From IMG/VR virus record IMGVR_UViG_2690316278_000011: 6,906 nucleotides of DNA; one strand, given 5' to 3'. Position numbers and translations under genes: made by a program. Every line of letters starts with the position of its first letter. Positions within the stretch are counted from its first letter, which is position 1. Source of the DNA: a virus (taxonomy: Duplodnaviria; Heunggongvirae; Uroviricota; Caudoviricetes). The notes beneath the pieces are model-generated. The model worked only from the letters and a program-made list of their open reading frames with translations, was not told where the DNA came from and did not search any database. Positions 1 to 6,906 of this stretch are shown in pieces.

Positions 1-16
1 CGCCTTACCGTAGCGA

Positions 17-175
17 TCAAACTCGGAGCGGGTCGTATTCGTTTCGGTCAGGACATACATGCCGTAAATCTGCCCGACGCCAATTTTTCACATGCCGCCA
101 GCTTTTGTTTTGCTGTAACTGCTGATGCGGCAATGTACGCAGCTCAAAAACAAACATGCCGTAGATCATCATCAT
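17..175 (-). CDS. Short ORF (52 aa) with gpU-like N-terminus; possibly a disrupted tail terminator (gpU) gene
   Basis: Three tandem ATG codons (175-167) preceded by GAGGAG about 8 nt upstream; the first ATG overlaps the T-gene stop (ATGA). Translation MMMIYGMFVFELRTLPHQQLQQNKSWRH... resembles P2 gpU N-termini as I recall them. The ORF stops at 19-17 after 52 codons, while a second frame (87..1, ...KIGVGQIYGMYVLTETNTTRSEFDRYGKA) stays open to the window edge. Confidence 0.4.
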   Translation of the reverse strand: MMMIYGMFVFELRTLPHQQLQQNKSWRHVKNWRRADLRHVCPDRNEYDPLRV

Positions 176-3123
176 GGCCATGACTCCTCAATCTTTATCG
201 TAAAAACTGCCACGNNNNNNNNNNNNNNNNNNNNNNNNNNNNNNNNNNNNNNNNNNNNNNNNNNNNNNNNNNNNNNNNNNNNNNNNNNNNNNNNNNNNNN
301 NNNNNNNNNNNNNNNNNNNNNNNNNNNNNNNNNNNNNNNNNNNNNNNNNNNNNNNNNNNNNNNNNNNNNNNNNNNNNNNNNNNNNNNNNNNNNNNNNNNN
401 NNNNNNNNNNNNNNNNNNNNNNNNNNNNNNNNNNNNNNNNNNNNNNNNNNNNNNNNNNNNNCAGGGACCAGCGCCGGAGGCAGCGGAGCCGGGACCACGG
501 GNNNNNNNNNNNNNNNNNNNNNNNNNNNNNNNNNNNNNNNNNNNNNNNNNNNNNNNNNNNNNNNNNNNNNNNNNNNNNNNNNNNNNNNNNNNNNNNNNNN
601 NNNNNNNNNNNNNNNNNNNNNNNNNNNNNNNNNNNNNNNNNNNNNNNNNNNNNNNNNNNNNNNNNNNNNNNNNNNNNNNNNNNNNNNNNNNNNNNNNNNN
701 NNNNNNNNNNNNNNNNNNNNNNNNNNNNNNNNNNNNNNNNNNNNNNNNNNNNNNNNNNNNNNNNNNNNNNNNNNNNNNNNNNNNNNACAGGCTTCGGCGG
801 ATTGATTTTCGCCAGGTCCCCCTGAAGCAAGGCAACCTTGTCCTGAAGAATGGCCGCACGCTGTGCGTCTNNNNNNNNNNNNNNNNNNNNNNNNNNNNNN
901 NNNNNNNNNNNNNNNNNNNNNNNNNNNNNNNNNNNNNNNNNNNNNNNNNNNNNNNNNNNNNNNNNNNNNNNNNNNNNNNNNNNNNNNNNNNNNNNNNNNN
1001 NNNNNNNNNNNNNNNNNNNNNNNNNNNNNNNNNNNNNNNNNNNNNNNNNNNNNNNNNNNNNNNNNNNNNNNNNNNNNNNNNNNNNNNNNNNNNNNNNNNN
1101 NNAACCAGTTAAAGACCTGAATAATCCCATCGCGCACGACATCAAAAACAGGGCCAAACCGTTCAAAGGTTTCGCGCAACGGGGTCAGCCTTTCCATAAT
1201 CCCGCTGAACACCCCGGCAAAAAATGCCCTGATGGGATCCCAGTATTTCCAGATAAGAACGGCAGCTCCGGCAAGCGCAGCCACGATAAGACTAACCGGA
1301 CTGAACAGCGCCCCGATAGCGCCACCAAGTAAAGAAACGGAACCCGTCACCATTCCCCATAATGCAGGCAGAACCCTGACAACATTCATTGATTCGGTCA
1401 GGAGAGAAAAACCGAGACGCAACGTAGCCAGCTTCCCGTGAAGCACCCCAATAACCAGAGACAACGAACCAACCGTTGCTGTTGTCGCCAGCAGTGCGCC
1501 TCCCGCTATCAGTAACTGGCGCGTCAGTGCCGGGTGGGCCTGCGCCAGCGCCGTCACCTTTGAGACAACCCGCGTGAGCCACTGCGTGACAGAACGCAGC
1601 GGACCGTCAACCAGATCACTGATGCGAATACGCAGACCTTCCCATGCACTGCCGAGTGATTTCAGGTTGCCATCAAGGTTATTGGCCATAACCTTTGCCG
1701 TGCGTTCTGCCTCACCGCGCGCGCCTTCAAGTTCTTTTCTCAGTTTGGCTAAGAAGCCGTCACCTGCCGCATCAACGAGGCCCATAAATGATGTGAAAGC
1801 CTCTTCTCCGGCAATGTCCTTAAAGAACGATACCCGGTCAACCTCCCCGTATTTGCGGGTGGCTTTATAGAGATCGGCCAGCACATTCTCCATCGGGCGC
1901 ATTTTGCCTTTGGCGTCAGCAACTGACACCCCCAGCTCTTTCAGTGCTTCTGCCGCTGCCTTTGGCGGTGATGACAGATTGGCCAGGCTTTTACGCAACG
2001 CTGTACCTGCATCACTCCCCCTGATACCCATCTTCGCCAGCACGCCCGCCATCGCTGCGGCCTGCTCCAGCGATATTCCCAGCTTACCCGCCACCGGACC
2101 TGCATATTTCATGGTTTCGCCCAGTGCGCGAAGGTCAGTGTTGGTACGGGTAAACGCTGCGGTAAGTGTGTCACCGACCCGGTCCATCTGGTCAGCAGAG
2201 AGGCCGAACTGCGTCAGGATATTGGAACCAATATCCGCCGTCTCGCCGAGGTCCATACCGCCAGCCGTTGCCATGCTCAGCACGCCGGGAAGCGCAGCCT
2301 GAATGGCCTGCGGTGTGAAACCAGCCATTGCAAGAAATGCCTGTCCACTGGCGGCATCGCCTGCGGTGAACTGCGTTTCAGAGCCAAGTTTTAACGCCTG
2401 CTCACGCAGCGCCTTAAACTGCGGGCTGTTTTTATCGATTCGCGTCAGTGCCTGAACACGGGACATCTCTTTCCCGAACCCGATAGCGGGCTGCAAAAAA
2501 CGCCCGGCAGCATAGCCGCCCGCTGCCGCCGCACCTGTTGCCAGCGCACCACCTGTTTTCAGTTTTCCCGCTGTTTCCTGCGCGCGTGAATACCGCTCAC
2601 GCGCCTGCGTTACACGCGCAAGCGCCCGCCGTTCGCGTTCAAGCTGGTTGTTGTATTGTCCGGTGCGTCTGATGGCCTGCTGGATGGTGTTATCGCTGCC
2701 TGTCAGGGAAATGCCGTGGCGTTTCAGCTCTCCGCCAAGTTCCCGCATTTTCTGAATTTCCCGTGTGCGCGATTCATTCAGGCGTTCAAGCCGGGTGCTT
2801 AACTGCTGCATCAGCTTTTGTTGTTTTTCGCTGAGCACTGTACCCGTGCGTTGTAACTGATTAAGGGCGTTAAGCTGGCGTCGTGCTTTCACGATGCCCG
2901 CATCCGCTTTACTGACAGCGTCACGGGCGCGCTCAAATGAACGCGCCTGACGCTCGAGATTTTTGATCGCCCCCTGCGTTCGCTGGATGGAGTCACCAAA
3001 CTGCCCCATCAGGCGGCGGGCGTTTTCGGCAGGCCGGGTCAGCCTGTCAACGGCGCTGAAAGCGACCCGGATATCAAGAGTCTTCATTGTCTGCATTCCC
3101 GCTGCGAAGTGCCGCCCGCTCAC
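172..3123 (-). CDS. Phage tail tape measure protein (P2 gpT-like)
   Basis: Long minus-strand ORF, nominally 983 aa. The first 673 residues (3123..1105) are unmasked: coiled-coil-like N-terminal region, TMP core-like segment (...FTAGDAASGQAFLAMAGFTPQAIQAALPGVLSMATAGGMDLGETADIGSNILTQFGL...), then a long hydrophobic stretch (about 1240-1533). Sits directly after E/E' as in P2. Start is ambiguous (GTG 3123, ATG 3096 or ATG 3087). The C-terminal third crosses three N-runs and its frame cannot be verified. Confidence 0.85.
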   Translation of the reverse strand: MSGRHFAAGMQTMKTLDIRVAFSAVDRLTRPAENARRLMGQFGDSIQRTQGAIKNLERQARSFERARDAVSKADAGIVKARRQLNALNQLQRTGTVLSEKQQKLMQQLSTRLERLNESRTREIQKMRELGGELKRHGISLTGSDNTIQQAIRRTGQYNNQLERERRALARVTQARERYSRAQETAGKLKTGGALATGAAAAGGYAAGRFLQPAIGFGKEMSRVQALTRIDKNSPQFKALREQALKLGSETQFTAGDAASGQAFLAMAGFTPQAIQAALPGVLSMATAGGMDLGETADIGSNILTQFGLSADQMDRVGDTLTAAFTRTNTDLRALGETMKYAGPVAGKLGISLEQAAAMAGVLAKMGIRGSDAGTALRKSLANLSSPPKAAAEALKELGVSVADAKGKMRPMENVLADLYKATRKYGEVDRVSFFKDIAGEEAFTSFMGLVDAAGDGFLAKLRKELEGARGEAERTAKVMANNLDGNLKSLGSAWEGLRIRISDLVDGPLRSVTQWLTRVVSKVTALAQAHPALTRQLLIAGGALLATTATVGSLSLVIGVLHGKLATLRLGFSLLTESMNVVRVLPALWGMVTGSVSLLGGAIGALFSPVSLIVAALAGAAVLIWKYWDPIRAFFAGVFSGIMERLTPLRETFERFGPVFDVVRDGIIQVFNWXXXXXXXXXXXXXXXXXXXXXXXXXXXXXXXXXXXXXXXXXXXXXXXXXXXXXXXXXXXXXXXXXXXXXXXXXXXXXXRRTACGHSSGQGCLASGGPGENQSAEACXXXXXXXXXXXXXXXXXXXXXXXXXXXXXXXXXXXXXXXXXXXXXXXXXXXXXXXXXXXXXXXXXXXXXXXXXXXXXXXXXXXXXXXXXXXXXXXPVVPAPLPPALVPXXXXXXXXXXXXXXXXXXXXXXXXXXXXXXXXXXXXXXXXXXXXXXXXXXXXXXXXXXXXXXXXXXXXXXXXXXXXXXXXXXXVAVFTIKIEESWP
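215..461. other. Run of N (masked or unresolved), 247 nt
   Basis: Contiguous n characters inside the tape measure gene. Confidence 1.
502..786. other. Run of N (masked or unresolved), 285 nt
   Basis: Contiguous n characters inside the tape measure gene. Confidence 1.
871..1102. other. Run of N (masked or unresolved), 232 nt
   Basis: Contiguous n characters inside the tape measure gene. Confidence 1.
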
Positions 3124-3603
3124 GCCAGCTAACCACTTCGCCGGGCGTCATCATGAAGATTTCGGCGGGCGACCAGTTAAAAATGGCGGCAATATCCGCC
3201 ACAAAGTCTTCTATGTGCTCAAAGCACACAACCGTGATCAGGCTTCCGTCGCCTGTTCGTTCTTCTCGCCAGAGTCCGCACCGCTCAAAAAATTTACGGC
3301 AACCACACATAACTGAATAAAGTCACGGGATGCCATTTTTTTGATCGTCACTTCATCCAGTCGCGGTGATGTCACGCGTGACAGCAGCGTAAACATGGAT
3401 TCCGCTTTCAAATTCAGCACATCAGACAGCGACAAATCTCGCAGAGATCCAGCCTGCTCAATAGCCCCGGTGATCTCCACATACGTGATTTTTTCGCCGC
3501 CTCGCTCAATTGGTTGGGTAAGTTTTACGCCACGCTCACTGGTTTCTTTCACAGTGTCAGCAACGACCGTGTTTTCGGTATCGATGTTTTTCGTCTCTTT
3601 CAT
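3074..3603 (-). CDS. gpE+E' fusion chaperone made by programmed -1 frameshift (about 176 aa)
   Basis: The -1 frame is open from 3322 to its stop at 3076-3074 and overlaps the gpE frame across T TTT TTG (minus strand, 3292..3286). After the slip the reading continues ERCGLWREERTGDGS...NADNEDS. The E' frame has a stop at 3325-3323 upstream, so E' cannot be an independent long gene. The 3' end overlaps the T start. Confidence 0.7.
3238..3603 (-). CDS. Tail assembly chaperone, gpE-like (zero-frame product)
   Basis: 121-aa ORF between the tube and tape measure genes. ATG at 3603 preceded by AAGGAG with about 7 nt spacing. Contains the slippery heptamer near its 3' end. Confidence 0.8.
   Translation of the reverse strand: MKETKNIDTENTVVADTVKETSERGVKLTQPIERGGEKITYVEITGAIEQAGSLRDLSLSDVLNLKAESMFTLLSRVTSPRLDEVTIKKMASRDFIQLCVVAVNFLSGADSGEKNEQATEA
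3286..3292 (-). other. -1 programmed ribosomal frameshift slippery heptamer T TTT TTG
   Basis: Zero-frame codons AAT TTT TTG (N-F-L of gpE) fit the X XXY YYZ pattern; the -1 frame reads TTT TTT GAG into the E' extension. Both frames are open across the site. Confidence 0.7.
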
Positions 3604-3657: not shown

Positions 3658-4170
3658 TCAGCCAAGCCCGAGCGCGGAACGGATGCGATCGGGCACAATG
3701 TCCCTGCCGTCCTTCCGGTAAATGAAGTTCAGCAGGTCAATCTCCCACAACGGGCGATCGTTAACACTCAGCTTGTAGTAGGTGTTTTTAATGGCGTAAG
3801 TGTGTGATGTGGCTTCGCCCTGTTTGGCTTCCCCCATATCAATTTCCGTCACACGTCCGCGCATTTCGACTTCATACAGGTCGCTTTCAGCGTCGGTGTA
3901 GTATTCACCCGCAAAACGCAGCAGCGTACCGTCAATCGTGCCGCCATACTTAAGGAACAGCTCACGAACTGCGCCCCCCATGACAAAGCTCGCATCAAGC
4001 GCGGAGTCATCCAGGCCGAGATCAATACTTACCGCTCCCATCATGCCACCACCCCGGTAGCTGTCGGTTTTGCGCGTCAGCTTAGGCAGAGTGACGGACG
4101 TCACCTTACCCACTTCGTTTTCACCATCCACAAACAGCGTAAAAAAGCGAAGATGTTTTGGTACAGCCAT
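3658..4170 (-). CDS. Tail tube protein (P2 gpFII-like)
   Basis: 170-aa ORF (MAVPKHLRFFTLFVDGENEVGKVTSVTLPKLTRKTDSYRGGGMMGA...) closely resembling P2 FII as I recall it (...VTLPKLTRK...YRG.GM...). ATG at 4170 preceded by GGGAGG; the start overlaps the sheath stop (TGATG). Confidence 0.9.
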   Translation of the reverse strand: MAVPKHLRFFTLFVDGENEVGKVTSVTLPKLTRKTDSYRGGGMMGAVSIDLGLDDSALDASFVMGGAVRELFLKYGGTIDGTLLRFAGEYYTDAESDLYEVEMRGRVTEIDMGEAKQGEATSHTYAIKNTYYKLSVNDRPLWEIDLLNFIYRKDGRDIVPDRIRSALGLG

Positions 4171-5253
4171 CAGGCACCTCCCAGCACCGCAAATGCGGGA
4201 CCAAAGAATTCATCAGTAAACGACTGGTAAAGCTCCATGTCTTCCAGCGGGGGAACAGGCGTATATTTGTAGCGAATACGCACGCGCCCCTGACGTAAAT
4301 TCGTGGTGCCGTTATCCACCACGTCATACCAGCACGACGCCCCAATCAGTTTCCCGGCAGTAACCAGTGAATCCAGTTTTGCCCTGATGGCACCGATAAC
4401 ATCCTTCACGTTCGCAGGCGTCAGTGGACTGTCGATGGTTTCAAACTGCGCTTCCGCAATTGAATCAGCCAGCACCTGTGCGGTTCGGGTATACACCTCA
4501 AAGATGTAGGCGTTCGTTTCCGGTGTGCGGTTGCCCCAGAAGCGGAACCCGTTGCGACGAATAATGGTCGTGATTTCTTTGTTGTTGAGGCTGTTGGCAT
4601 CACTGTCTTCGGCCTGCAACGACCAGAACACATGCCTGGACATCCCCAGCACATTTTTAACCGGAACGTTGGACAGCGATTTGTGCCAGCCCTGCTCATG
4701 GTCAATGTACGCACGAAGGCCGCACGCATAGGCAGGCGCGGGGAACGTTTCGTTTTTGCCACTTTTCGGGTTGTAGGCGATGAAGTCCGGCCATAAGAGC
4801 ATCACCTCACGTTCGTTGAATTTCTGGCGGTAGGTAATTGCCTCAGCCATCGTGTTACAGTCATGACATGAGGCATACACAAACGCGCGCAGTTTACCCG
4901 CAATCACGCACAGGGATTTTGTCACCGCCTCCGTGTCCAGCTCCGGCGCGGCCAGAATACGCGGACGGTATCCGATGCTTTCATCCTGCTCTGCAACAAG
5001 CAGCGCATACATCCCCGTATAGCTGCCGTCAGATTCAGAACCACCGATAACCAGTTGATCCTGCGTTTTTCCGTCTTCTTCNNNNNNNNNNNNNNNNNNN
5101 NNNNNNNNNNNNNNNNNNNNNNNNNNNNNNCCACGCGAACGACGATCACCTTTGTGCTCACCTGGTCTGCGATGGCCTTAAGCGCACGATAAAGCGTCCC
5201 CGTTGTTCCGCATTTTCCCAGCACGTCATTGACGCGGGGCAGCAGTGTGGGCT
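4170..5253 (-). CDS. Tail sheath protein (P2 gpFI-like), 5'-partial as visible
   Basis: The 280-aa ORF 4170..5012 matches the sheath C-terminal two-thirds (...GFRFWGNRT...YTRTAQV...YKYTPVPPLED...). The same frame stays open upstream of Met-5012 (EEDGKTQDQLVIGGSESDGSYTG-MYALL) up to the 49-N run. Segment 5131..5253 encodes PTLLPRVNDVLGKCGTTGTLYRALKAIADQVSTKVIVVRV, sheath N-terminal-like, but in a different nominal frame. The start codon lies inside the masked 5254-5541 block. Confidence 0.85.
5082..5130. other. Run of N (masked or unresolved), 49 nt
   Basis: Contiguous n characters inside the sheath gene; the sheath-like frames on either side differ by one position. Confidence 1.
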
Positions 5254-5541
5254 NNNNNNNNNNNNNNNNNNNNNNNNNNNNNNNNNNNNNNNNNNNNNNN
5301 NNNNNNNNNNNNNNNNNNNNNNNNNNNNNNNNNNNNNNNNNNNNNNNNNNNNNNNNNNNNNNNNNNNNNNNNNNNNNNNNNNNNNNNNNNNNNNNNNNNN
5401 NNNNNNNNNNNNNNNNNNNNNNNNNNNNNNNNNNNNNNNNNNNNNNNNNNNNNNNNNNNNNNNNNNNNNNNNNNNNNNNNNNNNNNNNNNNNNNNNNNNN
5501 NNNNNNNNNNNNNNNNNNNNNNNNNNNNNNNNNNNNNNNNN
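5254..5541. other. Run of N (masked or unresolved), 288 nt
   Basis: Contiguous n characters covering the sheath start and the region upstream of it. Confidence 1.
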
Positions 5542-5627
5542 CCCCCTCCGCACGCACATGCGACCATGCCACACAGGGAGGGAGCAGATGACCGACACCA
5601 CCATGCAATTGCTCAGTCAGGGCACAG

Positions 5628-5654
5628 NNNNNNNNNNNNNNNNNNNNNNNNNNN
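5628..5654. other. Run of N (masked or unresolved), 27 nt
   Basis: Contiguous n characters immediately upstream of the gpD-like ORF. Confidence 1.
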
Positions 5655-5660
5655 GACCCC

Positions 5661-6725
5661 GTGAAAATGCCGGATTTTGATATTCTCGCGGAGGGTAAAA
5701 CGCTGTCAGGCGTGGCAGAGCGCCTGATGAGCCTGTCACTGACCGACAACCGGGGATTTGAGGCGGACCAGCTCACCATCACGCTGGATGATGCGGATGG
5801 TCAGTTGCAGCTACCGCCACGGGGCGCGCGCCTGACGGTTCTCATTGGCTGGAAGGGAGAACCGCTGACAGAAAAAGGCACTTACATTGTTGATGAAATC
5901 GCTCACGAAGGACCGCCGGACAGGCTGACTGTTTCAGCCAGAAGCGCAGATTTTCGGGCTGAATTTAACGTTAAACGTGAGGTGTCCTGGCATGATGTGA
6001 CCGTTGAGCGTGTGGTATCCGCCATCGCTCATCGGTATGGTCTGAAACCGCAAATCAGCGAAATGCTGATGGATATCGAAATCGACCACGCCGACCAGAC
6101 CGAAGAAAGCGACATGTCCTTCCTTACGCGCATGGCGGAAATGCTGGGCGCAATCACCACGGTAAAAAGCGGTAATCTGTTATTCATCATGCCCGGTGGT
6201 GGCGTGAACGCACAGGGCCAGCCGTTGCCCTCGTTCGCCATCACACGCAGCAGCGGCGATCGCCATCAGTTCCGCATTGCTGACCGCGAAGCGTATACGG
6301 GGGTACGCGCTTACTGGCTTGATCTTAATTACGGGAAAAAGAAAAAAGTCAGCGTGAAACGCCGCAAACCGTCAAAACCAAAAAAGGAGAAAAGCAGCAG
6401 CCGGGAAGGCGACTATATGGAAGGTGCGGAAGGCAACGTGTTTGTGTTACGCAAAACTTATCAGAACGAGCAGGCAGCAAGACGTGCAGCGGCGGCAAAG
6501 TGGCAGCAGCTACAACGCGGAGCCGCATCATTCTCCATCACACTGGCGCATGGACGTGCAGAACTCTACCCCGAAATGCATGGCACGGTAACAGGATTTA
6601 AAAGCGAGATTGATAATCAGGACTGGATTATTGCAAAAGCCGAGCACACCATTGATAACAGCGGCTTTACCACGCAGCTTGAGCTTGAGGCAAAAATCCC
6701 GGAATGGATAGCAGAAACAGAGTGA
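5661..6725 (+). CDS. Tail/baseplate hub protein, P2 gpD-like (late control D family)
   Basis: 354-aa ORF with family hallmarks as I recall them: PDF near the N-terminus, SLTDNRGFEADQL, GW.GEPL, ARSADF, DQTEESD..FLTRMA, IADREAYTGVRAYW. The ORF-finder start is GTG 5661 (ATG at 5667), but the frame is open back into the N-run, so the true start is uncertain. Stop TGA at 6723-6725. Confidence 0.85.
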   Translation: MKMPDFDILAEGKTLSGVAERLMSLSLTDNRGFEADQLTITLDDADGQLQLPPRGARLTVLIGWKGEPLTEKGTYIVDEIAHEGPPDRLTVSARSADFRAEFNVKREVSWHDVTVERVVSAIAHRYGLKPQISEMLMDIEIDHADQTEESDMSFLTRMAEMLGAITTVKSGNLLFIMPGGGVNAQGQPLPSFAITRSSGDRHQFRIADREAYTGVRAYWLDLNYGKKKKVSVKRRKPSKPKKEKSSSREGDYMEGAEGNVFVLRKTYQNEQAARRAAAAKWQQLQRGAASFSITLAHGRAELYPEMHGTVTGFKSEIDNQDWIIAKAEHTIDNSGFTTQLELEAKIPEWIAETE

Positions 6726-6906
6726 GCAACTTAAATGTATTAACTCAGAACGGATCAACACACTCACAACATAGAGTCAATATAGCTGCTCGCTTTGTTC
6801 CAGCAAGGATGCCTATTTCTAAGGAAAAACAGAGCAGAAACATATGGTGTTTTCCTACCTGACATCAGGGGTGGTAGACTGGCCCCCTGAATCTCCAGAC
6901 AACCAG

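What the first reader, a model, noticed from the sequence alone, without database searches (positions are those of the whole stretch)
4170..6725. Synteny break: gpD-like hub gene is divergent from the sheath gene instead of following U
In P2 and its known relatives the order is FI-FII-E-E'-T-U-D on one strand. Here the first six lie on the minus strand with U at the window's left edge, but the gpD-like gene is on the plus strand beyond the sheath start. Together with the apparently broken gpU this suggests an inversion or rearranged, possibly degenerate, element, a second tail-gene remnant, or an assembly artefact. The junction (5254-5654) is almost entirely masked, so it cannot be inspected.
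Basis: partly seen in the sequence, partly recalled or inferred. Interest (0 to 1): 0.55.

Follow-up and report, generated by a model that had tools for sequence, protein, structure and literature searches.

The report
Normal gene order of P88-like phages
The tail-hub gene D does face away from the sheath gene here, but this is the normal, long-fixed gene order of a large branch of P2-related phages (P88 and its relatives), so it is an ordinary prophage tail module and not a fresh rearrangement or an assembly error.

Summary
U', T, E/E', FII and FI lie on the minus strand, and D lies on the plus strand, divergent from FI.

The interpretation mostly fails, because this order is not peculiar to this element:
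- At least 888 of 5426 complete E. coli genomes have it.
- The plaque-forming phages P88 and PhiSM have it, as does PhiR44_2, and so do four Peduoviridae genera (Xuanwuvirus, Senquatrovirus, Reginaelenavirus, Reipivirus).
- All 80 IMG/VR relatives have it.
- 61 of 80 D-gene loci drawn from one representative genome per species, across many Enterobacterales genera, have it.
- P2, 186, Cartapus, Pseudomonas phage Dobby and Vibrio phage VP58.5 are colinear, so the inversion is old and lineage-wide.

The "masked" junction reads normally in two public genomes (L091, L096) that match every readable base of the window. It is a 157-nt spacer with the P2-type activator dyad (TGT-N12-ACA type) and -10-like hexamers at equal distance on both sides. 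I infer a two-way late promoter like P2 pP/pO that drives FI-U one way and D the other.

The N runs are 28-38 nt too long, which produces the apparent frameshifts in T, FI and D. D is intact (369 aa).

Only two features are specific to this copy: a private 158-nt deletion in gpU, and an IS2 end downstream of D.

The parts
1..181 (-). gpU remnant. Codons 1-33 lie at 83-181. A later piece of U (GVGQIYGMYVLTETNTTRSEFDRYGKA) lies at 1-81 in another frame. 158 nt are missing at the 82|83 junction.
   Evidence: alignments to O111, P88 and L091. Pfam GpU profile positions 1-26 and 80-106 of 120, in two frames.
172..3123 (-). gpT tape measure gene. Three N runs (215-461, 502-786, 871-1102) lie in its 3' part.
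   Evidence: PhageMin_Tail; the intact version is 935 aa in L091; 100% identity in all readable bases.
3074..3603 (-). gpE (3238-3603) and the E' frameshift extension (3074-3229).
   Evidence: Phage_P2_GpE; a weak Phage_TAC_7 match. gene calls of 121 and 51 aa.
3658..4170 (-). gpFII tail tube, 170 aa, intact.
   Evidence: Phage_tube, 158 bits; this exact protein is listed in 812 blocks of the public assembly index.
4170..5430 (-). gpFI tail sheath. The start codon is hidden in the N run, at about 5392-5430. The apparent frame change across 5082-5130 comes from an over-long N run.
   Evidence: 394 aa and intact in L091; 49 N stand for 11 nt.
5431..5587 (.). FI-D spacer (157 nt in L091, P88 and O111). 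Only 5542-5587 is readable. That stretch shows TG-n-GACCAT (5559-5567, -10-like, reading towards D) and the ribosome-binding site GGGAGGG (5576-5582). The activator dyad TCT-N12-ACA lies under the N run.
5588..6725 (+). gpD baseplate hub, 369 aa and intact once the spurious 27-N run (5628-5654) is removed.
   Evidence: the joined translation is identical to L091 D. Phage_GPD; alignment with P88, SEN5, Klebsiella phage, Cartapus and P2 D proteins.
6872..6906 (.). Terminal 35 nt of an IS2 copy inserted downstream of D.
   Evidence: row H122, a feature annotated as IS2; this 35-nt end recurs at unrelated loci in many E. coli genomes. L091 and L096 match through 6906 and carry the transposase ORFs there.

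Best explanation
The window is the tail-tube, sheath and hub module of a P88-like (Xuanwuvirus-type) P2-family prophage. In related genomes this prophage sits next to ihfA-pheT.

In this lineage an ancient inversion turned the whole pF-FI-FII-E/E'-T-U block around. FI now diverges from D across a spacer of about 157 nt, and D-ogr kept their original direction. The order is fixed and compatible with viable phage.

I infer that D is expressed as its own late unit. The spacer holds one Ogr-type activator dyad (TGT/TCT-N12-ACA) at the P2-pF distance from FI. It also holds -10-like hexamers 43-48 nt from the dyad centre on both sides. One activator site would therefore fire both FI->U and D, as the single annotated site does for P2 pP/pO.

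Shown here: the gene identities, the conserved order, the conserved dyad and hexamers, and the intactness of D. Inferred: promoter function and Ogr dependence.

Two features are specific to this copy. One is a 158-nt frameshifting deletion in gpU, an essential tail gene in P2, so this copy would be tail-defective if the deletion is real. The other is an IS2 insertion downstream of D.

The apparent frame breaks in T, FI and D are artefacts of N runs that are too long.
For: Same order elsewhere:
- At least 888 of 5426 complete E. coli genomes.
- P88, PhiR44_2, Xuanwuvirus P884B11, Citrobacter Shae_phiSM, Chuche and others; the P88 genome map.
- 80 of 80 IMG/VR loci.
- SEN5 and Klebsiella phages Kp4871-3 and Kp4848-1.
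- 61 of 80 species-representative loci. The split is clean: D at least 61% identical to P88 goes with the divergent order, and D at most 53% identical goes with the colinear order.

Colinear comparators: P2, 186, Cartapus, Dobby and VP58.5.

Viability: P88 and PhiSM form plaques (PMC5285337, PMC6456863).

Promoter evidence:
- The dyad is perfect in 35 and has one mismatch in 21 of 61 loci. Its centre lies 74-88 nt from the FI ATG, against 83 in P2 and 82 in 186.
- The dyad centre lies 62-80 nt (mostly 66-80) from the first D ATG in 45 of the 56 loci that have a dyad; the automatic pick gave 39-55 nt in the other 11.
- The consensus hexamers GAttAT (towards FI) and TG.AAtcAT (towards D) both lie at +43 to +48 from the dyad centre in 55 unique loci.
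- In P88 the pattern TYT-N12-ACAACAA occurs only in the P/O and FI/D spacers.
- The spacer has no consensus sigma-70 promoter.

Window state:
- 100% identity to L091 and L096, where U is 162 aa, T 935, FI 394 and D 369 aa.
Against: No transcript mapping or reporter data for the FI-D spacer were found or made, so the two-way promoter rests on sequence conservation alone.

The loci surveyed are phylogenetically related, so counts of conserved sites overstate independence.

The P88 pattern was derived from the two sites it then found.

Five of 61 loci lacked a dyad within one mismatch in the expected zone.

The 158-nt gpU deletion could be an artefact of whatever produced the faulty N runs.

The source record of the window was not found.
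Confidence: 0.9

Rival explanations
1. A recent, element-specific inversion or scrambling in a decaying prophage.
For: gpU carries a frameshifting 158-nt deletion. An IS2 copy sits downstream of D. So this copy does show some decay.
Against: The identical order and spacer occur in intact, plaque-forming phages and in hundreds of genomes across many genera. L091 has the same order with an intact U. The decay marks are therefore independent of the gene order.
Confidence: 0.02
2. An assembly artefact, with a contig misjoin hidden under the N run at 5254-5654.
For: The N runs are plainly not faithful. All six are 28-38 nt too long, and one stands for no sequence at all. The window ends inside an IS2 copy, as short-read contigs often do.
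Against: Finished chromosomes carry exactly this junction, with 100% identity on both sides (CP179990.1 = L096, NC_013364 = L001, and many more). The hidden stretch there is ordinary FI coding sequence plus the spacer.
Confidence: 0.02
3. Two abutting elements, with D belonging to a second tail-gene remnant and not to this tail module.
For: None beyond the orientation. One IMG/VR contig (L083) does show a rearranged pair of P88-like elements.
Against: P88 (35.8 kb) and the other phages have a single D homologue per genome (527 places in 526 records). D identity tracks FI, FII and U identity across 61 loci, as expected if these genes are inherited together as one module.
Confidence: 0.01
4. The FI-U block is a switchable invertible segment flipped by the neighbouring Gin/Hin-type DNA invertase.
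For: In P88 and L088-L097 an invertase gene lies directly next to U. A preprint notes invertases with inverted neighbouring genes at this P2 hotspot (10.1101/2024.10.15.618418).
Against: Every locus in the clade has the same orientation: 80 of 80 IMG/VR loci, 61 of 61 species-representative loci, and 888 E. coli genomes. SEN5 and most surveyed loci have no invertase nearby. No inverted repeats flank the block in P88; the only crossover-type repeats flank the tail-fibre segment (I1-I3). Cartapus has the same invertase with a colinear FI..D.
Confidence: 0.02

Closest known systems
Escherichia phage P88 (Xuanwuvirus P88, Peduoviridae; KP063541 / NC_026014)
   Same: Same genes in the same order and on the same strands: U T E' E FII FI on one strand and D divergent, with a 157-nt FI-D spacer. 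Nucleotide identity is 95-98% across the readable window.
   Different: The window lacks 158 nt of gpU and has an IS2 copy downstream of D. Downstream of D it resembles the O111 and L088-L097 variant, which carries a PIN-domain gene between D and ogr. P88 D is 366 aa against 369 aa here.
Bacteriophage P2 (Peduovirus P2) and 186 (Eganvirus)
   Same: Same tail gene set (FI, FII, E/E', T, U, D, ogr/B). Same type of activator dyad about 82-83 nt upstream of the sheath ATG. Protein identity to P88 is 33-49%.
   Different: FI..U-D-ogr are colinear on one strand and D is the last gene of the F/J operon. Here FI..U is inverted and D stands alone facing away from FI.
P2 pP/pO divergent late promoters
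   Same: One annotated activator site (3057-3087) lies between two divergent late genes, with transcript starts 55-56 nt to either side. The FI-D spacer has one dyad with -10-like hexamers 43-48 nt to either side.
   Different: pP/pO are mapped experimentally (record annotation). The FI/D arrangement is inferred from sequence only.
Salmonella phage SEN5 (Senquatrovirus); Klebsiella phages Kp4871-3 (Reginaelenavirus) and Kp4848-1 (Reipivirus)
   Same: Same divergent FI/D order and a conserved dyad in the spacer.
   Different: D is only 62-71% identical to P88 D. SEN5 has no invertase beside U.

Membership tests
P2-family (Peduoviridae) contractile tail module | Homologues of FI sheath, FII tube, E/E' chaperones, T tape measure, U and the D hub, clustered together | tested here: met
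   Pfam hits above the curated cut-off for sheath, tube, GpE, tape measure and GPD. The two GpU pieces are partial and fall below the cut-off because the gene is split. tblastn to P2 proteins gives 33-49% identity.
P2-family (Peduoviridae) contractile tail module | Colinear order FI-FII-E-T-U-D on one strand, as in P2 and 186 | tested here: not met
   D is on the opposite strand to FI..U. This feature describes P2 and 186 but does not define the family: four Peduoviridae genera lack it.
P88-like lineage (Xuanwuvirus and allied genera) | FI..U block inverted, with D divergent from FI across a spacer of roughly 150-220 nt | tested here: met
   The window matches P88 piece by piece in that order. 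80 of 80 and 61 of 61 relatives share the order.
P88-like lineage (Xuanwuvirus and allied genera) | Genus-level nucleotide identity to P88 over the whole genome (ICTV uses about 70%; from my own knowledge) | tested here: inconclusive
   Identity is 95-98% over the 6.9-kb window only. The rest of the source genome is not available.
Ogr/B-dependent late promoter | Dyad TGT-N12-ACA centred about 55 nt upstream of the transcript start, with a weak or absent -35 | tested here: inconclusive
   The dyad and the -10-like hexamers are at the right distances in relatives, and there is no consensus sigma-70 site. In the window itself the dyad is under N, and no transcript start is known.
Ogr/B-dependent late promoter | Activation by the phage's own Ogr-type zinc-finger protein | not testable with these tools
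   An ogr/Delta-family gene lies downstream of D in relatives. Its function was not tested.
Defective (cryptic) prophage | An inactivating lesion in an essential gene | tested here: inconclusive
   The gpU 158-nt deletion shifts the frame. It is found in no other record, and the window has other artefacts, so it may not be real.

The most novel reading that the evidence does not exclude
In a large clade of enterobacterial P2-family phages, the ancient inversion made D a separate late transcription unit. The FI-D spacer would then be a second two-way Ogr-dependent promoter, in which one dyad fires both the FI->U operon and D. None of the papers I searched or opened mentions this for these phages.
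Probability: 0.55. Interest if true: 0.3.

Novelty: already known. Interest (0 to 1): 0.12.

Why it matters
It matters mainly as a caution. P2 and 186 are not the only template for P2-family synteny. About one in six complete E. coli genomes, and prophages in dozens of Enterobacterales genera, carry the inverted FI-U block, so this order should not be flagged as damage or misassembly.

A smaller point concerns regulation. The conserved dyad with symmetric -10-like elements suggests how the hub gene stayed under late control after it was cut off from its operon. That is easy to test in P88 or PhiSM.

For this particular window, the N runs are unreliable in length, and the only possible real defect is the deletion in gpU.

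Tried and rejected
**Finding the source record.** All attempts found nothing, so the flanks of the true source were not seen:
- The exact 40-nt gpU junction in GTDB representative genomes, IMG/VR and JGI metagenomes.
- A 56-nt junction query against complete E. coli genomes.
- An exact look-up of the 54-aa truncated U product.

**tRNA scan of the window**: none. The right end is IS2, not a tRNA attachment site.

**Sigma-70 and terminator scan of the P88 spacer**: no promoter-like site in the spacer. This fits activator-dependent promoters but proves nothing.

**Inverted repeats around the FI-U block in P88**: only the tail-fibre crossover repeats and short chance-level pairs. I rejected the switchable-segment idea on this basis.

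**Frameshifts in FI, T and D as signs of decay.** Considered and rejected once the N runs proved 28-38 nt too long.

**The 266-aa D annotation in O111 and L096 as a truncation.** Considered and rejected, because the DNA is identical to L091, where D is called at 369 aa.

**Literature.** Searches for an explicit description of the inversion found only a passing remark about invertases and inverted neighbouring genes at the P2 hotspot.
Full report
**What is in the window.** ORF listing and Pfam scans show a P2-family tail module.
- On the minus strand lie a split gpU (1-181), the tape measure T (172-3123), E' and E (3074-3603), the tube FII (3658-4170) and the sheath FI (4170 up into the N run).
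- On the plus strand lies the hub gene D, ending at 6725.
- The last 35 nt (6872-6906) are the end of an IS2 copy (row H122).
- No tRNA is present.

So the observed feature, D divergent from the sheath gene instead of following U, is really there.

**The N runs are not faithful.** Two public genomes, L091 (GCA_000188795.2, ADUU01000015.1) and L096 (GCA_013838625.2, CP179990.1), match every readable base of the window at 100%, including the IS2 end. I found them by looking up the exact tube protein.
- Against them, and also against P88 and an O111 prophage, the six N runs are 32, 32, 28, 38, 38 and 28 nt longer than what they replace.
- The 27-N run at 5628-5654 replaces nothing.
- With that run removed, D starts at the ATG at 5588 and is identical to the 369-aa D of L091.
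- In L091 the other genes are also whole: FI 394 aa, T 935 aa and U 162 aa.

The apparent frame changes in T, FI and D are therefore artefacts. The "uninspectable" junction holds only the first 46 or so FI codons and a 157-nt spacer.

**The order is canonical for a lineage.**
- The whole window, in one orientation-consistent place, is found in at least 888 of 5426 complete E. coli genomes. Maximum possible coverage is 83.7%, so reaching the 80% threshold requires the D segment on the same strand as in the window.
- It is also found in phage genome records: P88, PhiR44_2, Xuanwuvirus P884B11, Citrobacter Shae_phiSM, Chuche and others.
- The P88 genome map reads ...V W J I H G | G' H' | invertase | U T E' E FII FI (minus) | D (plus) | hok.
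- P88 is inducible and forms plaques (PMC5285337). PhiSM forms plaques and lysogenises E. coli K-12 (PMC6456863).
- All 80 IMG/VR loci with D at least 98% identical to P88 D have the same order.
- The next nearest phages also have it: Salmonella SEN5 (Senquatrovirus) and Klebsiella Kp4871-3 (Reginaelenavirus) and Kp4848-1 (Reipivirus), with D 62-71% identical.
- I searched one representative genome per species with a D-protein alignment. Of the 80 D-gene loci returned, 61 had the divergent order. They come from Salmonella, Klebsiella, Enterobacter, Citrobacter, Serratia, Erwinia, Pantoea, Pectobacterium, Brenneria, Yersinia, Hafnia, Providencia, Morganella, Xenorhabdus, Photorhabdus and others. 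The other 19 were colinear.
- The split is clean: D at least 61% identical to P88 goes with the divergent order, and at most 53% goes with the colinear order.
- P2, 186, Cartapus (Elveevirus), Pseudomonas phage Dobby and Vibrio phage VP58.5 are colinear. The colinear order therefore looks ancestral, and the inversion looks like an old shared trait of one enterobacterial clade.
- Each phage genome has one D, so this D belongs to this tail module.

**How D is probably expressed.** In P2 and 186, D is the last gene of the sheath operon, whose promoter needs the Ogr/B activator. The activator site is annotated about 57-58 nt upstream of the transcript start and 82-83 nt upstream of the sheath ATG.

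In the inverted clade the FI-D spacer carries the same kind of dyad:
- GTTGT-N12-ACAAC in SEN5 and Kp4871-3, and TCT-N12-ACA in P88, O111, L091 and Kp4848-1.
- Across the 61 divergent loci it is perfect (TGT-N12-ACA) in 35 and one mismatch off in 21. Its centre is 74-88 nt from the FI ATG.

When 55 unique loci are anchored on the dyad, two consensus elements appear at the same distance, +43 to +48 from the dyad centre: GAttAT towards FI and TG.AAtcAT towards D. In 45 of the 56 dyad-bearing loci the first D ATG lies 62-80 nt (mostly 66-80) from the centre; in the other 11 the automatic pick gave 39-55 nt. This geometry mirrors P2 pP/pO, where one annotated activator site serves two divergent late promoters with starts 55-56 nt to either side.

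In P88, the pattern TYT-N12-ACAACAA occurs only twice in 35.8 kb, in the P/O spacer and in the FI/D spacer. I derived that pattern from those same two sites, so it is supportive evidence only. No consensus sigma-70 promoter lies in the spacer.

I therefore infer a two-way late promoter. The inversion carried pF and its dyad next to D, and D became its own late unit. This is inference from conserved sequence, and no transcript data were available. In the window itself only the D-side part is readable: TG-c-GACCAT at 5559-5567 and GGGAGGG at 5576-5582.

**What is specific to this copy.**
- The window lacks 158 nt of gpU (L091 13997-14154), with a CAT microhomology at the junction. This leaves codons 1-33 and a later piece in different frames.
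- No other record has this junction. I checked complete E. coli genomes, 69 IMG/VR loci, ten identical-lineage contigs, GTDB representatives, IMG/VR and JGI metagenomes and the exact-protein index.
- Given the faulty N runs, I cannot say whether the deletion is real. If it is, the prophage should be tail-defective, because U is annotated as an essential tail gene in P2.
- The IS2 insertion downstream of D is shared with L091 and L096 and lies between genes.

**Rivals.**
- A recent element-specific rearrangement, a misjoin and a second remnant are all excluded by the distribution data above.
- A switchable segment driven by the adjacent invertase is also unlikely. All relatives have one orientation, many lack the invertase, Cartapus has the invertase with the colinear order, and no crossover-type repeats flank the block.

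**Verdict.** The arrangement is already present in characterised genomes, so interest is low. The modest new point is the inferred two-way late promoter.

Noticed in passing
window 215-461, 502-786, 871-1102, 5082-5130, 5254-5541, 5628-5654: All six N runs are 28-38 nt longer than the sequence they stand for in 100%-identical genomes, and the last one stands for no sequence at all. Frames and distances across N runs in this window cannot be trusted.
   Followed up: yes
window 82|83: A 158-nt deletion inside gpU with a CAT microhomology at the junction. It is private to this window among every collection searched.
   Followed up: yes
window 6872-6906: End of an IS2 copy about 145 nt after the D stop. 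L091 and L096 have the same insertion, lying between D and a 500-aa PIN-domain gene.
   Followed up: partly
L083 1-5250: An IMG/VR contig with two invertase copies, a tape-measure gene cut at residue 443 next to one of them, and a second U/T piece in the opposite orientation. It looks like a rearranged pair of P88-like elements.
   Followed up: partly
L098 (NZ_JBQPOM010000071.1): An assembly labelled Vagococcus sp. carries a 99%-identical P88-like D with the enterobacterial tail module. This is probably contamination or mislabelling.
   Followed up: no
L001 20922-21722; L096 7550-8350 versus L091 7550-8659: The same D sequence is annotated as 266 aa (VgrG/Pvc8 family) in some records and as 369 aa in others. 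This is a start-codon annotation inconsistency, not a truncation.
   Followed up: partly
L002 27555-27596: An 18-nt-stem hairpin between the convergent stop codons of the invertase and gpU in P88. It is likely a two-way terminator that ends the inverted FI-U operon.
   Followed up: no
L001 21948-23450; L088-L097 5822-7324: A 500-aa PIN-domain gene lies between D and ogr in the O111 and L088-L097 variants but not in P88. It is cargo at the D-ogr hotspot.
   Followed up: no
rows H91-H95 (E. coli O157:H7 chromosomes): O157:H7 copies of this module are interrupted by IS30 and IS1203 and match only as far as window position 5961, so they are truly degraded versions of the same lineage.
   Followed up: no
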